DNA from: a virus
Taxonomy: Duplodnaviria > Caudoviricetes
Direction: 5' to 3' (one strand)
Virus record (IMG/VR): IMGVR_UViG_3300033407_000065
Span: 1-37,988 of that record
DNA: 37,988 bases
Shown here: positions 17,670 to 37,699 of the stretch, in pieces
Numbering within the stretch: the stretch's first letter is position 1
Layout of the letters: the number at the start of each line of letters is the position of its first letter
Notes under the pieces: generated by a model
What the model was told of the DNA's origin: nothing
What the model saw: only the letters and a program-made list of their open reading frames with translations
The model's database searches: none
Translations under genes and position numbers: made by a program

Positions 17670-18200
17670 TCAATGCGAAGCCCTGAGCGCCGTTCGCAGA
17701 TGGTCGCCCACGATGTCCAGGATCTCGGCACGATCCCTCGGGCCGATGCCCAGGTAGGGCCGCGCTGGAATCGTCACCTTGCGCCCCCGTCCGGCCTTGC
17801 CGCCGAGCTGGTGGATGGCGGCATAAACTTTGCCGCTGCCGACACTGACCGAGGTGCGCCCCGCCTCATAGTGGATGGATCCGCGAAGCTGTGCTGAGTC
17901 GGTCAAGATCTTTCGTCCCGCCAAGTATTCTTGAAAAGCACTTGAGAGCCCACCGCTTCTGGTATGCGTGGTCTTCTTCTTGCGCAGCCGAAAACCCAGG
18001 TGGTAGCTGAGCACTTTGAGCGGCTTCCAGGGTGTACCGTCGGGGCTGCGTTCGTGACGGAAGTGTTCCTCGGTGCTTCGCAGCAGGCGCTCGCCAATGG
18101 CCTTCATGGCCGGGGTGAGGTCCCCGGTGGCTTTGAGGGCACCGCTCAGAGCCTTCTGGACCTGCCTGTCTTCTACTTTGACGCTGAAGCCCTCTGCCAC
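17670..18200 (-). CDS. Virion morphogenesis protein, Mu gpG-like
   Basis: M..IG..L..ST...F..E.SPDG.PW.PL...IL.DS..LR.SI...YAAIHQLGG...IPARPYLG. Confidence 0.92.
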   Translation of the reverse strand: MAEGFSVKVEDRQVQKALSGALKATGDLTPAMKAIGERLLRSTEEHFRHERSPDGTPWKPLKVLSYHLGFRLRKKKTTHTRSGGLSSAFQEYLAGRKILTDSAQLRGSIHYEAGRTSVSVGSGKVYAAIHQLGGKAGRGRKVTIPARPYLGIGPRDRAEILDIVGDHLRTALRASH

Positions 18201-18229
18201 TTGCCTGCCTCCTGTTTCTCTGGTAGCTT
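18201..18229 (+). promoter_or_regulatory. Putative sigma70 promoter facing the muF 3' end
   Basis: TTGCCT (18201-06), 17-bp spacer, TAGCTT (18224-29), extended TG at 18221-22. Confidence 0.45.
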
Positions 18230-18236
18230 GGAGTTG

Positions 18237-18345
18237 AAGGATTCGTTATCTGGTTGATCGGCAACAGGCTGCCGACGCCTTCGGGGTCATCCCCGATGAT
18301 GAGCGCTAGCGGGGTGCCGTCCCGTAACCAGATCAACGAATCCTT
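18237..18345. ncRNA. Putative cloverleaf (4-way junction) RNA overlapping the muF stop codon
   Basis: 19-bp closing stem (18237-55 / 18326-45, one bulge) enclosing three hairpins. Confidence 0.6.
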
Positions 18346-19472
18346 TCGTATTCCTTCCCTGGATTACGGAACTCCCGCACCTGCCTGTCTGCCAGCTCCT
18401 CTGATGTCTCGAAGAGCGTCAGGAAGTAATTCTCCCCGCCATCCTTGGTCCGCTTGAGCGCCGCTCGGTAGAGTTTTCCGTCCAGTTCCAGGTAGACGAG
18501 GCGATCCGTTCGGTCAGCACGCCTCCAGACCTCGCCCTTCTCGATGATGCGAGGGATCTTGCGGTAATCCTCAATCCCGATCTCCGGGTGCTTCTCCAGA
18601 TGTTTCTTAAGGCTTTCAGCGGAGAGCCACACCGTCTGGGTGGCGCTTCCGAGCACCTGCCGGTCTGAGGCGCTCAAGACCGCCACGGGGAAGTCCGCCT
18701 CGATTTTCCCGGCAAAGAACCTCTCGAAGGTCGGGCCGTTCAAAAAGCCCTGCATCCACTGCCGAGAGATCCCCTCCGGAAGGGTCTCGAACTTGTCGGC
18801 CAGCACCCGGTAGCCCTTGGCCTGCGCTTGCCCGACGTTGTAATCCCACCCCTTGCCAATGCCCACGGGCGCTCCGGTGGCCGGATCGAGCTTGATGATG
18901 GGCGCCTGGTCGGGGACGGTCTTACCTGCCCGGGCCAGATCCCGGGGACCGGCGGCGAAGACTTTGCACTTGCATCCCCAGCCGTTGGGCGGGTAGTGCG
19001 TCTTCCACCAGGGATCATCGGCGGGCAGGGTCAGACCATCCCAAGCCAGGTGCTGCGCTCTAGGCTGGATGCTGTCGCCGTGGCGGTACTCCAGGAAGGG
19101 CAACAGCTTCGTCATCTCCGGGTCGGTGAGCTGGGCCCAGCGCCCGGCCATGTAGGCGGTGCGGATGTTCGTCTTGTAGATCACCTCGCTGCGCCAGTTG
19201 CGGCTGCCGTTGTAGCTCCAGCCGTGCTTGGCCACGATGGCGTCGAAGTCTTTGCGGAAATCCTCCAGGGTGACGCCGTCGGCGATGGCCTTGTCCACGG
19301 CGGTGCGAAAGTCGGCGACCAACTCGGCCTTGGTCGCTCCGGCGATCATGAAGCCCCGGGCGTGCTGATCCTTCCAGAGGTCATCCCACCGCCGGGTGGG
19401 GATGTTGACCTTGTCCCGGAAGTGATCGAGCGCCTCCGGGAACGGTCGTTTAAAGACCGCTTCAACGCTCAT
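18333..19472 (-). CDS. MuF head morphogenesis protein with C-terminal putative BECR-fold (PBECR2-like) nuclease domain
   Basis: MuF motifs (TNIRTAY.AGRW, R.QH.AWDG, D.WW.THYPPNGWGCKC) plus a ~140-aa extension (KH..KHPEI..EDY...YRAALKRTK.G.E.YF.TL). Confidence 0.85.
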   Translation of the reverse strand: MSVEAVFKRPFPEALDHFRDKVNIPTRRWDDLWKDQHARGFMIAGATKAELVADFRTAVDKAIADGVTLEDFRKDFDAIVAKHGWSYNGSRNWRSEVIYKTNIRTAYMAGRWAQLTDPEMTKLLPFLEYRHGDSIQPRAQHLAWDGLTLPADDPWWKTHYPPNGWGCKCKVFAAGPRDLARAGKTVPDQAPIIKLDPATGAPVGIGKGWDYNVGQAQAKGYRVLADKFETLPEGISRQWMQGFLNGPTFERFFAGKIEADFPVAVLSASDRQVLGSATQTVWLSAESLKKHLEKHPEIGIEDYRKIPRIIEKGEVWRRADRTDRLVYLELDGKLYRAALKRTKDGGENYFLTLFETSEELADRQVREFRNPGKEYERIR

Positions 19473-28178: not shown

Positions 28179-28317
28179 GGTCATCTCCCATCTCGGGCAT
28201 CTGATAGGGCTTGCGCTCGGCGTACTCCTGTTTTTTACCCTTGTTCCACTGGCAGACGGGGCGGAAGAAACCGCAGACGCGGGACCAAACTTCGGTTTTG
28301 GCGGTGCATTTCTTCAT
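28165..28317 (-). CDS. 50-aa stand-alone NrdD C-terminal glycyl-radical-like peptide (not in ORF track)
   Basis: MKKCTAKTEVWSRVCGFFRPVCQWNKGKKQEYAERKPYQMPEMGDDHGKA. ATGA-coupled to the upstream gene and overlaps the gemA start. Confidence 0.85.
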   Translation of the reverse strand: MKKCTAKTEVWSRVCGFFRPVCQWNKGKKQEYAERKPYQMPEMGDDHGKA

Positions 28318-28733
28318 CCGATGACCTCCAGAATCTCGATACTCTCGAACGTTTGCTGGTAGTGCCGACGGATGGCCGTGGCGCTGGGCCAGGTGAGATC
28401 GAAAAAGTGGATTTTCCTGTCCGGGTCGAAAAATGGGCCCAGCTCCTCGCGGAGACGCTTGGGTGTTTTTTGAAGCATTGCGCGCTCCTTTGGTTTGTGC
28501 GCAAAACGGGAAACCGGCCGCAGATAGCGCTGCTCGGGGTGGTGGTTCTCAGAAGACACCCAAGCACCCTTCATGACGCCGTCGACGTAGGTTCCGATAC
28601 CCAGGCGGTTTTTACTCACCAGGGCACGCTGGAAGGTGACCTCACGACCATCGACCTTGAGCTTGACCATGCCGTAGGTGCCCGAGAGAGCCTTTTCGAT
28701 ACGGGTCCAGTCTTCCTTGTTCAGCTTGCTCAT
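28314..28733 (-). CDS. Conserved Mu-like hypothetical protein
   Basis: True start MSKLNKEDW at 28733 (ATGA overlap). V.L.VDG..VT...YVDG..KG.W pattern. Confidence 0.75.
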   Translation of the reverse strand: MSKLNKEDWTRIEKALSGTYGMVKLKVDGREVTFQRALVSKNRLGIGTYVDGVMKGAWVSSENHHPEQRYLRPVSRFAHKPKERAMLQKTPKRLREELGPFFDPDRKIHFFDLTWPSATAIRRHYQQTFESIEILEVIG

Positions 28734-28942
28734 GAGCGGCGCTCCTTCTCCTTGTCGATAGCAGTCACGGCGCGAACCTCGACCAGCAGGGCGGGATCGC
28801 GCTCGACCTGGCGGTACCATTCCAGCGGGACGGTGATGCCGAGGCTGAGGTAGGCGACGCCTGCCTGAATGTCGTTGCGCTTGTGCACATTGACGGAGCG
28901 GCAGAGCTGCGGGAATTGCGCGGGATTGCGTTTTGTGGCCAT
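28730..28942 (-). CDS. Hypothetical protein
   Basis: 70 aa, GGAGG RBS, coupled to the downstream gene. Confidence 0.6.
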   Translation of the reverse strand: MATKRNPAQFPQLCRSVNVHKRNDIQAGVAYLSLGITVPLEWYRQVERDPALLVEVRAVTAIDKEKERRS

Positions 28943-28968
28943 GGGCCCTCCATCTGCCCTCCTGGTTG

Positions 28969-29007
28969 AAAAAGTCCCCCTGCGCGAGAGGAGGGGCTCG
29001 CGCAGGG
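28969..29007 (-). terminator. Terminator-like hairpin after the ribozyme
   Basis: CCCUGCGCGAG-loop-CUCGCGCAGGG followed by GGACUUUUU. Confidence 0.55.
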
Positions 29008-29021
29008 CAGTGCTGCTGACT

Positions 29022-29101
29022 GTGGCTGCTCGTCAGGCCCCGGGCACCACCCCGGGACGACCCACCACTTTGCCGACGTCGGCAAAATGGTGGGTTTCGC
29101 A
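29022..29101 (-). ncRNA. Type II hammerhead ribozyme
   Basis: UGC-GAAA-[stem III]-UC-[stem I, loop GUGGUG]-CUGACGA-GCA-GCCAC. Complete catalytic core, GUC cleavage triplet and pseudoknot partner. Confidence 0.9.
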
Positions 29102-29105
29102 TGGT

Positions 29106-36760: not shown

Positions 36761-36821
36761 GGTGTTCAATGGTTTTAGGTATTATGGAAACGATACCTAA
36801 AAAAAAGAAATGGAGGGAGCC

Positions 36822-37157
36822 ATGAAAATAACTCTATTAGTCTCAATATTTTTGTTTGCAATATTCCCGGGGCCTTCATTTTCAAAAAGCTTTGGCCCAA
36901 AACACGACAAAGTGGCCAAGCTATTTCAAGGCAATGAAGAACCGAAGGCAAAAGATGCTGTTTGGACTCAAGAAGATATTTTTAAAATAGGCGTCATAGA
37001 TGACGGGACAAACCGAGACGGTTACGCCGAATATGCTTGCGCCGTTCTTTATAAAGAAGGTTTCAAAGGTAAGCGGGTCTGGGTCCAAATTATTGATATC
37101 GTGAAACTAAACAAAATAGGGGAATGGGTAAGGCTTGGCGAAGCCAAATGTAGGTAG
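36822..37157 (+). CDS. Secreted/periplasmic moron protein
   Basis: MKITLLVSIFLFAIFPGPSFS signal peptide, GGAG RBS, AT-rich. Confidence 0.7.
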   Translation: MKITLLVSIFLFAIFPGPSFSKSFGPKHDKVAKLFQGNEEPKAKDAVWTQEDIFKIGVIDDGTNRDGYAEYACAVLYKEGFKGKRVWVQIIDIVKLNKIGEWVRLGEAKCR

Positions 37158-37219
37158 GCAAAACGAGCTGAAAAAAGACTATTCTAGCTATCTAAAATAA
37201 GTGGGGCTGAGGCGCTAAT

Positions 37220-37699
37220 ATGTCTTTTGCTATTCATAGAAAATCTATTCATTGTCCGAACTGCAAATATGAGGGCGCTGCTAAAGTAAAAGGAACTGGA
37301 GGCACCCTTGCCATCGTCGGACTAATCTTGCTAATAGTTGGATTTTTCTTCTTGCCACTATTGATAGCTGCAATTTTACTATTTATAATTGCTACCATAA
37401 AGCCAGCAAAACAAATATGCCCTAAATGCAAATATGAAAACCCCATTCCACTACAACAGTGGAAAAAACAAAATTCCGCAAAATTCGTGTGTCCATTTTG
37501 CGCAGAACTAATTCAAAAAGATGCAATTAAATGCAAGCATTGTGGAAGTGACCTCACAAGCTTAGAAGTTAAAAATAAAATCAAAACAGCTGATAAAAGT
37601 CATATGAATTCACTTGCATACAAAGCAGGTAAATTTTTGAAAAAAATAATAAGCCTAACGCTTACCAGACCCACCCCCGACCGTAAAGCTGTCCGTTAA
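37220..37699 (+). CDS. Membrane protein with LITAF-like and double zinc-ribbon motifs
   Basis: CPNC - hydrophobic hairpin - CPKC, then CPFCAE.I..DAIKCKHCG. Very AT-rich. Confidence 0.75.
   Translation: MSFAIHRKSIHCPNCKYEGAAKVKGTGGTLAIVGLILLIVGFFFLPLLIAAILLFIIATIKPAKQICPKCKYENPIPLQQWKKQNSAKFVCPFCAELIQKDAIKCKHCGSDLTSLEVKNKIKTADKSHMNSLAYKAGKFLKKIISLTLTRPTPDRKAVR

What the first reader, a model, noticed from the sequence alone, without database searches (positions are those of the whole stretch)
18201..18760. MuF-nuclease fusion followed by a tRNA-like cloverleaf RNA instead of an immunity gene
Seen: MuF has a C-terminal extension resembling PBECR (Barnase/EndoU/colicin E5-D/RelE-like) RNase domains. 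No immunity ORF follows. Instead a 109-nt element (18237-18345) forms a 19-bp stem that includes the last codons and stop of muF and encloses three hairpins (CGGG/CCCG; CGCU..UCGGGG-AUGA-CCCCGA..GGCG; UCGGCAG/UUGCCGA). G-U pairs favour the mRNA (-) strand, yet a well-spaced TTGCCT-17-TAGCTT promoter on + would start right at the stem edge. Established: toxic MuF proteins usually have a downstream protein immunity gene, and colicins E5/D cut tRNA. Inference: a virion-delivered RNase paired with an RNA antitoxin, decoy or substrate, possibly an undescribed RNA-protein module.
Basis: partly seen in the sequence, partly recalled or inferred. Interest (0 to 1): 0.8.

Follow-up and report, generated by a model that had tools for sequence, protein, structure and literature searches.

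The report
Phage-injected RNase with RNA antidote
A Mu-like phage head protein ends in a predicted RNase, and facing it is a conserved gene for a cloverleaf RNA that likely neutralises this enzyme; bacteria lacking the enzyme keep the same RNA genes, some as oversized spacers inside CRISPR arrays, likely as stolen immunity.

Summary
The element is real, but it is not an mRNA-strand structure. It is a ~110-nt RNA gene on the + strand with its own predicted sigma-70 promoter, facing muF tail to tail. It folds as a four-way junction with an invariant UGAUGAG bulge and a covarying loop-loop kiss, tRNA-like in layout but not a tRNA, and has no Rfam match. Covarying stems hold 37 G-U pairs on the promoter strand and 0 on the mRNA strand. 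The MuF tail models as a BECR-fold RNase (moderate scores) with His295 and Thr352. The RNA follows 33 of 42 relatives of this domain. It is missing from short MuFs and from degenerate tails (phage Mu, JBD18, JBD25). Other PBECR subfamilies carry other RNAs in the same slot. Unexpectedly, RNA copies also occur without the nuclease: in mixed tandem arrays, at CRISPR trailer ends (7 of 10 host orphans), and as 212-907-nt 'spacers' between CRISPR repeats with promoter intact. Best reading (0.6, inferred): a virion-delivered RNase held in check by a trans-acting RNA antitoxin that hosts and rival elements capture as immunity. Toxicity, binding, expression and the RNase target are untested.

The parts
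18333..19472 (-). muF (minor head protein), 379 aa: Phage_Mu_F domain plus C-terminal extension
   Evidence: PF04233 aa 54-171, E 3e-14; phrog_220
18336..18755 (-). C-terminal PBECR/BECR-fold predicted RNase domain (aa 240-379)
   Evidence: Pfam PBECR3/PBECR1 E 0.02, below cut-off; AF2 pLDDT 94.9; best structural matches BrnT Z 6.3, CdiA-CT NC101 Z 6.0, colicin D Z 5.2
18588..18590 (-). His295 codon (HPE motif in the N-terminal helix region), predicted catalytic
   Evidence: invariant in alignments; His plus S/T configuration described in PMC5512222 section 19
18417..18419 (-). Thr352 codon (LT/SLF strand), predicted catalytic S/T
   Evidence: T or S in this column in nearly all rows
18201..18206 (+). 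predicted -35 box TTGCCT of the RNA gene
   Evidence: positional conservation 21 of 35 vs 3.8 expected
18224..18229 (+). predicted -10 box TAGCTT (17-nt spacer)
18237..18345 (+). structured ncRNA (type A), convergent with muF and overlapping its last 13 nt; start predicted near 18235-18237
   Evidence: (109 bits to model R1, which was built with it)
18237..18256 (+). P1 outer stem 5' strand (pairs with 18325-18345)
   Evidence: 161 WC + 24 G-U of 198 cells in 22 rows
18258..18275 (+). P2 hairpin; loop triplet GGC at 18267-18269 predicted to kiss the P5 loop
18276..18305 (+). P3 (CGC 18276-18278 / GCG 18303-18305), variable P4 hairpin (18281-18296) and invariant UGAUGAG (18297-18303)
   Evidence: P3 100% paired with compensatory changes, P4 91%; TGATGAG invariant in 35 rows
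18310..18324 (+). P5 hairpin; loop triplet GCC at 18316-18318 predicted to pair with the P2 loop
17670..18200 (-). gpG (Phage_tail_S), next late gene; the RNA promoter abuts its start

Best explanation
The muF gene encodes a head protein whose tail is a predicted BECR-fold RNase that is likely injected with the phage DNA, and a conserved cloverleaf RNA gene facing it, with a predicted promoter of its own, likely binds and neutralises that RNase as an RNA antitoxin. Shown: the RNA family, its strand, four-way fold, loop-loop covariation, coupling to intact nuclease tails, subtype matching, and survival without the nuclease. Inferred: (1) MuF carries the RNase into the cell, where it cuts host RNA (tRNA-type targets by analogy with colicin D/CdiA; crRNA or mRNA also possible) before phage genes are expressed; (2) the prophage makes the RNA constitutively, so lysogens and cells making MuF late in infection are protected; (3) the RNA works by shape, probably as a tRNA-sized decoy presenting the UGAUGAG bulge; (4) hosts and rival mobile elements collect these RNA genes as orphan immunity, in some cases through capture between CRISPR repeats.
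For: Conservation: model R1 hits 33 of 42 loci found by the tail alone; the motifs are plain in the raw sequences. Structure: 95.3% of 385 cells paired vs 71.1% in shuffles, slid controls 30-51%; the kiss uses GC, UG, AU, CG and GU pair types; cognate kiss possible in 39 of 40 vs 29.2+-1.7 with shuffled partners (adding the dropped mismatching L093 gives 39 of 41). Own gene: promoter 21 of 35 vs 3.8 expected and 3 of 35 on the other strand; 37 G-U vs 0 A-C. Coupling to enzyme state: 13 of 19 short MuFs overlap gpG by 4-8 nt and none of 18 scanned has the RNA. No gap where the tail looks degenerate: L117, L118, L058, L079, Mu, JBD18, JBD25. Slot logic: PBECR2 and MuF-C-like tails have other RNAs behind antisense promoters; ADP-ribosyltransferase-tipped MuF has antisense small ORFs there instead. 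Trans action: 10 of 24 genome loci and 11 of 30 metagenome loci have no tail in the flank; 10 of 10 such host genomes lack the tail anywhere, with 3 of 3 positive controls found; mixed-type arrays in L173, L137, L226; RNA plus promoter sits as 212, 277, 697 and 907-nt inserts between CRISPR repeats.
Against: No experiment shows toxicity, RNase activity, binding or neutralisation. Fold scores are moderate (best Z 6.3, under the tool's caution level of 8; Foldseek gave nothing at E<=0.001) and Pfam hits are below cut-off. 'Degenerate' tails were judged by eye, and L069 and L077 lack the His yet keep a structured gap. Model R1 was trained on many of the loci it recovers. Only 11 of 22 orphan or embedded copies show a promoter by the same rule. 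Orphans were found by searching for the RNA, so neutral relics are over-represented, and many host genomes are incomplete MAGs. The RNA-tail distance correlation (0.65 vs 0.47 for the MuF N-terminus, n=34) can come from linkage alone. Layout differs from known RNA-antitoxin operons.
Confidence: 0.6

Rival explanations
1. Antisense silencer (type I-like): the RNA base-pairs with the muF-gpG junction of the late mRNA to suppress leaky toxin expression; hosts keep copies to silence incoming phage mRNA.
For: Convergent layout and a 13-nt overlap with the muF stop in the window; the RNA is lost with inactive-looking tails.
Against: Antisense action does not need a conserved loop-loop kiss or an invariant bulge while stems vary freely. 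Several members do not overlap muF at all (L089, L103, L104, L108-L112). Tandem copies in one phage differ in sequence but keep the fold (L103, L110).
Confidence: 0.12
2. The RNA has its own job for the phage (a decoy against host tRNA-cutting defence, or a head-assembly RNA), and the PBECR tail only binds or processes it.
For: tRNA-like layout; location in the head module; PMC5512222 section 19 suggests RNA binding for inactive MuF-C.
Against: Phages with short or degenerate MuF do without it. Hosts would gain little from an assembly or anti-defence RNA, yet keep it in arrays and CRISPR loci.
Confidence: 0.1
3. The RNA is an activator or cofactor: tail plus RNA form the active RNase, and hosts express orphan copies to trigger the injected enzyme early (abortive infection).
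For: Strict coupling to intact tails and subtype matching fit any RNA-protein partnership; orphans lie in defence contexts.
Against: A housekeeping-type promoter in the prophage would pair activator and enzyme in the producing cell; the slot holds small antisense ORFs, as expected for immunity proteins, when the tail is another toxin class.
Confidence: 0.08
4. Orphan and CRISPR-embedded copies are neutral relics of phage DNA capture; the RNA matters only inside the prophage.
For: Clipped muF and gpG fragments flank some copies (L323, L372, L258, L270); one copy is decayed (L312); an earlier unchecked scan note reports long inserts of other cargo in CRISPR arrays.
Against: L357 holds two adjacent inserts, each trimmed to one RNA type plus promoter, and a related array (L323) holds a different type B copy. 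A kiss remains possible in 22 of 22 orphan or embedded copies (loose test). Arrays of mixed types exist.
Confidence: 0.1

Closest known systems
MuF polymorphic toxins with downstream immunity ORFs (Jamet et al. 2017, PMC5576092; passages read)
   Same: MuF head protein of a temperate phage with a variable C-terminal effector, and a partner gene right after it.
   Different: The partner is an RNA gene on the opposite strand, not a small ORF (89.4% of their 191 toxin genes have a small ORF). The words antisense and opposite do not occur in the main text.
PBECR / MuF-C domains (Iyer et al. 2017, PMC5512222; passages and section 19 read)
   Same: MuF fusion; His in the N-terminal helix plus C-terminal S/T; proposed virion delivery; crRNA or mRNA proposed as targets; Mu gp30 called inactive, and Mu has no gap.
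   Different: No partner RNA or immunity factor is described in what I read; this subfamily scores below all PBECR Pfam cut-offs.
Type III toxin-antitoxin systems ToxIN, CptIN, TenpIN (PMC12283969; passages read)
   Same: Protein endoribonuclease paired with a structured RNA with tertiary pairing; repeated copies occur.
   Different: Different toxin fold (BECR fused to a virion protein); RNA is downstream, convergent and separately promoted; usually single copy; four-way junction with a loop kiss, not an H-type pseudoknot repeat; no terminator between RNA and toxin.
Colicin D, CdiA-CT and BrnT RNase toxins (structure matches)
   Same: BECR-type fold by model comparison.
   Different: Their immunity factors are proteins (entry titles; otherwise recalled); no target shown here.
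CreTA and other CRISPR-linked small RNAs (search listing and abstract starts only)
   Same: Small RNA genes beside type I CRISPR loci that help against phage.
   Different: Those are crRNA-like guides or RNA toxins controlled by Cascade; this RNA is phage-derived, has no repeat-spacer form and occurs mostly beside muF.

Membership tests
PBECR / BECR RNase | N-terminal helix followed by a 4-5 strand sheet | tested here: met
   model secondary structure; 9 of the 10 best-ranked matches are titled RNase toxins or toxin-antitoxin/immunity complexes, Z 4.1-6.3
PBECR / BECR RNase | His in N-terminal helix and S/T in the last core strand | tested here: met
   His295 invariant, Thr352 T/S; not superposed residue by residue on colicin D
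PBECR / BECR RNase | Score above a PBECR1-5 or MuF_C Pfam cut-off | tested here: not met
   15.2 and 15.4 bits vs cut-offs 30 and 27.6: an unmodelled subfamily (899 representatives at E<=0.001)
PBECR / BECR RNase | RNase activity | not testable with these tools
   needs assay
MuF polymorphic toxin-immunity pair | MuF domain with exchangeable C-terminal effector in the head module of a temperate phage | tested here: met
   Mu transposase and repressor in the window
MuF polymorphic toxin-immunity pair | Small immunity ORF right downstream | tested here: not met
   132-nt gap, no conserved ORF on either strand
Type III toxin-antitoxin | One operon: promoter, antitoxin repeats, terminator, toxin gene | tested here: not met
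   RNA is downstream and convergent; no terminator-like site at 17900-18800
Type III toxin-antitoxin | Tandem antitoxin repeats | tested here: not met
   single copy in the window; two divergent copies in some relatives
Type III toxin-antitoxin | RNA with tertiary (pseudoknot-type) pairing | tested here: met
   covarying loop-loop kiss, different topology
Type III toxin-antitoxin | RNA binds and inhibits the toxin protein | not testable with these tools
   inferred from genomics only
tRNA | D, anticodon and T loop consensus with CCA end | tested here: not met
   ARAGORN 0; no Rfam match
Hammerhead ribozyme | CUGANGA core plus GAAA and stem III | tested here: not met
   UGAUGAG is invariant but no conserved GAAA; Rfam found a hammerhead elsewhere in the window, not here

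The most novel reading that the evidence does not exclude
Mu-like phages inject an RNase that disables host defence on entry, possibly by cutting CRISPR RNAs, and switch it off with a tRNA-shaped RNA. Bacteria answer by integrating those RNA genes, promoter included, into their CRISPR arrays as giant spacers, building a library of subtype-specific inhibitors: a second form of acquired immunity in which the array stores working anti-effector genes rather than guides.
Probability: 0.3. Interest if true: 0.95.

Novelty: new variant of a known kind. Interest (0 to 1): 0.86.

Why it matters
PBECR domains are common in phage head proteins, yet their target and control are open questions. This gives them a cognate RNA partner and a direct test. 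If it holds, it would be an RNA acting as the immunity factor of a virion-delivered polymorphic toxin, a pairing I did not find in my searches. It also adds several RNA families absent from Rfam. The capture of these RNA genes at and inside type I CRISPR arrays suggests that arrays can store functional anti-phage genes, and that hosts can immunise themselves against injected phage effectors.

Tried and rejected
tRNA or known RNA: none. Hammerhead-like reading of UGAUGA: rejected, no GAAA. Hidden immunity ORF: not conserved. Strand by folding energy alone was weak (27 of 40) and G-U counts in MFE folds were uninformative (111 vs 114); alignment-based counts settled it. DNA match in cultured phages: none; close tail relatives in cultured phages: only 5 distant hits. 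Expression: no RNA holder listed, so no reads were laid. The tail alone found no viral loci. Model searches of whole families scored only 23-28 candidates per genome and are insensitive. The pattern was mis-specified and is not used. The L244 repeat is a tandem repeat, not CRISPR. Spacer search: of 86 spacers from 5 RNA-adjacent arrays only one gave a notable match, 28/32 to muF of prophage L201, too thin to lean on. crRNA as target: array adjacency first suggested it, but capture between repeats explains adjacency without it, and 0 of 4 further orphans from family searches were near arrays. Literature: ten searches listed no paper on a MuF/PBECR partner RNA; one search was swamped by an unrelated term.

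Full report
Setting. The window is a Mu-like temperate phage with transposase, repressor, terminase, portal, muF, gpG, protease and capsid genes. muF (18333-19472, minus) has a Phage_Mu_F domain at aa 54-171 and a 140-aa tail; 132 nt separate its stop from gpG.

The protein. The tail gives sub-threshold PBECR1/3 hits. An AlphaFold2 model on 61 sequences has pLDDT 94.9. Foldseek found nothing at E<=0.001, but its top rows are CDI toxins, BrnT and RelE. The wide search ranks BrnT (Z 6.3, rmsd 2.8, 75 aligned), a Salmonella toxin-antitoxin complex (6.0), CdiA-CT NC101 (6.0) and colicin D (5.2) first. These scores are moderate, but the top of the list is of one kind. His295 is invariant and Thr352 is T/S, the configuration that PMC5512222 section 19 gives for active PBECR domains. 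The family is large: 899 cluster representatives at E<=0.001. RNase activity and virion delivery are inferred from that paper and from PMC5576092 (passages).

The RNA. 18237-18345 folds at z about -5.3 on both strands and matches neither tRNA nor Rfam. Of 42 viral loci found with the tail alignment, 33 carry the element by covariance model (the model was trained on many of them, but the motifs are visible in raw sequence). Of the other nine, L102 has a divergent variant, L113 and L119-L121 have another RNA type, L122 has an unclassified structured gap, L116 ends 31 nt past the stop, and L117 and L118 have no gap. On the strand opposite muF, the alignment (35 rows) gives an outer stem P1, hairpin P2, a 3-bp P3 leading through an invariant UGAUGAG bulge to a variable P4, and hairpin P5. 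For P3, P4 and a 3-bp contact between the P2 and P5 loops, 95.3% of 385 cells pair, against 71.1% in shuffles and 30-51% when slid (the shuffle control ignores relatedness). The kiss changes together: GGC/GCC, GCC/GGC, GAC/GUC, AGC/GCU, UGC/GCA, CGC/GCG. It is possible in 39 of 40 copies versus 29.2 with shuffled partners; L093, dropped by my regex, is a mismatch, so 39 of 41. This puts the first and last arm loops in contact, as D and T loops are in tRNA (layout analogy from general knowledge). In the window this model costs -52.9 kcal/mol versus an MFE of -54.9.

Strand and promoter. A sigma-70-like promoter sits just before P1 in 21 of 35 promoter-proximal copies (5 of 40 left out as distal copies or contig ends), against 3.8 expected and 3 of 35 on the other strand. 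Transcription itself is not shown.

Coupling to the enzyme. Among 19 distinct short MuFs (222-251 aa), 13 overlap gpG by 4 or 8 nt; for 6 the script placed no gpG start. None of the 18 scanned has the RNA. Tails that look degenerate have no gap: L117 and L118 lack the HPE motif, L058 and L079 lack conserved residues, and phages Mu, JBD18 and JBD25 have gaps of -4, -4 and +1. Against this, L069 and L077 lack the His yet keep a structured gap; they may belong to the Arg-type family, which I did not test. Other tails use the same slot differently. Of 21 such loci examined, 14 have an antisense promoter by a strict rule 68-123 nt from the stop; PBECR2 tails carry an ~80-nt RNA (type B) and MuF-C-like tails carry other cloverleafs (types C, D; loop contacts seen by inspection only). 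ADP-ribosyltransferase-tipped MuFs have two small antisense ORFs there, which I read as immunity proteins, untested. RNA distance tracks tail distance more than MuF N-terminal distance (0.65 vs 0.47; partial 0.59 vs 0.34; n=34, 3 short rows skipped), which linkage alone could give.

The RNA without the enzyme. A protein-blind pattern scan of viral contigs gave 56 matches: 41 directly after this tail, 1 true orphan (L173), and 14 chance matches (10 distinct, none hit by the model). In genomes, 24 of 118 matches are true by the model; 14 adjoin a tail or its remnant and 10 do not. All 10 orphan-bearing genomes lack the tail elsewhere, with 3 of 3 prophage controls found (many are incomplete MAGs). 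In metagenomes, 31 of 74 matches are true; dropping one identical to the window leaves 14 beside muF, 11 without a tail and 5 tied to CRISPR repeats. Copies pile up: A+B in L173, A+C in L137, two A copies with different kiss codes in L103 and L110, and two A, three B and one C in a Mu remnant in L226.

CRISPR link. Seven of the 10 genome orphans lie within about 300 nt of the trailer end of an array: L191, L223, L230, L237, L240, L260 and L210 (type I-E, I-F and I-G-like repeats, subtype names recalled from repeat sequence; csy3/csy4 by Pfam in L237). Five are from one family, so they are not independent, although near-identical cassettes in L210 and L230 abut different repeat types. None of 63 and 41 chance-match loci has an array. 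Four further orphans from family searches were not near arrays. In L357 the last two spacers of an array are 212 and 277 nt: one is a type B RNA with promoter and a clipped muF end, the other a type A RNA with promoter and clipped muF and gpG ends. A related array (L323, L377) holds a 907-nt insert with the type A unit and a different type B copy. L372 holds a 697-nt phage piece between a degenerate terminal repeat and the next repeat, with the tail frameshifted and the RNA intact; L363 has the same piece. Both orientations relative to the array occur, so the RNA's own promoter, not the array transcript, probably drives it. How such inserts arise is not shown. An earlier unchecked scan note reports long inserts of other cargo in arrays, so capture may be general and adjacency need not mean that crRNA is the RNase target.

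Mechanism. An RNA that appears only with intact-looking RNase tails, is subtype-matched, fills the slot that small ORFs fill for other toxin classes, has a promoter of its own, is conserved by shape, and is kept by genomes without the enzyme is best read as a trans-acting inhibitor (0.6). Rivals: antisense silencing (0.12), an independent RNA role (0.1), orphans as neutral relics (0.1), activator (0.08). It works like a type III antitoxin and like MuF immunity but fails defining features of both, so I file it under neither.

Novelty. Ten literature searches listed no description of a MuF/PBECR partner RNA. I read passages of PMC5576092, PMC12283969, PMC13728456 and bioRxiv 10.64898/2026.08.28.747851 (no 'ncRNA' or 'non-coding' in its main text), and passages plus section 19 of PMC5512222; all other papers were seen as listings or abstract starts. 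No supplements were read; those of the MuF, PBECR and BECR papers, and RNA motif lists outside Rfam, could bear on novelty. The oversized-spacer observation had no dedicated search.

Noticed in passing
window 29020-29102 (-): Type II hammerhead ribozyme (Rfam RF02276, 62 bits, E 1e-10) beginning at the ATG of the 262-aa ORF 28314-29102.
   Followed up: no
L357:345-862; L323:982-1888; L372:1101-1797: Phage RNA genes with promoters held as 212-907-nt inserts between CRISPR repeats.
   Followed up: partly
L226:1720-2510 (L318:3816-4605): Array of six RNAs of three types in a Mu-like remnant of a Syntrophus MAG.
   Followed up: partly
L011:3499-3501 and L012: In-frame TGA at the first Cys of the conserved GWGCxC motif of muF in two contigs; a selenocysteine reading or a true stop.
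   Followed up: no
L016:5210-5815 (-), also L018, L029, L031, L039: Two small antisense ORFs (103 and 96 aa) after a DRAT-like ADP-ribosyltransferase MuF; candidate convergent immunity proteins.
   Followed up: partly
L026:3688-4353: MuF with a metallopeptidase-like tail (Pfam ATLF) followed by a 92-aa antisense ORF.
   Followed up: no
L191 spacer at ~970-1001 vs L201:889-920: A spacer of an RNA-adjacent array matches muF of a Halomonas prophage carrying this system at 28/32; homologous sites in relatives follow CC.
   Followed up: partly
L102, L223, L210/L230, L337, L374: A divergent type A variant (AGACCAATA...CCTG 5' arm) that model R1 misses, often in tandem with the standard type.
   Followed up: no
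L260:175-262: A tRNA-like sequence ending in CCA directly before the orphan RNA, not called by ARAGORN.
   Followed up: no
L302/L400: RNA and gpG retained in a prophage slot where the muF tail was not found.
   Followed up: no
window 36810-37699 (+): Two ORFs after the repressor, one with zinc-ribbon domains; possible lysogenic cargo.
   Followed up: no
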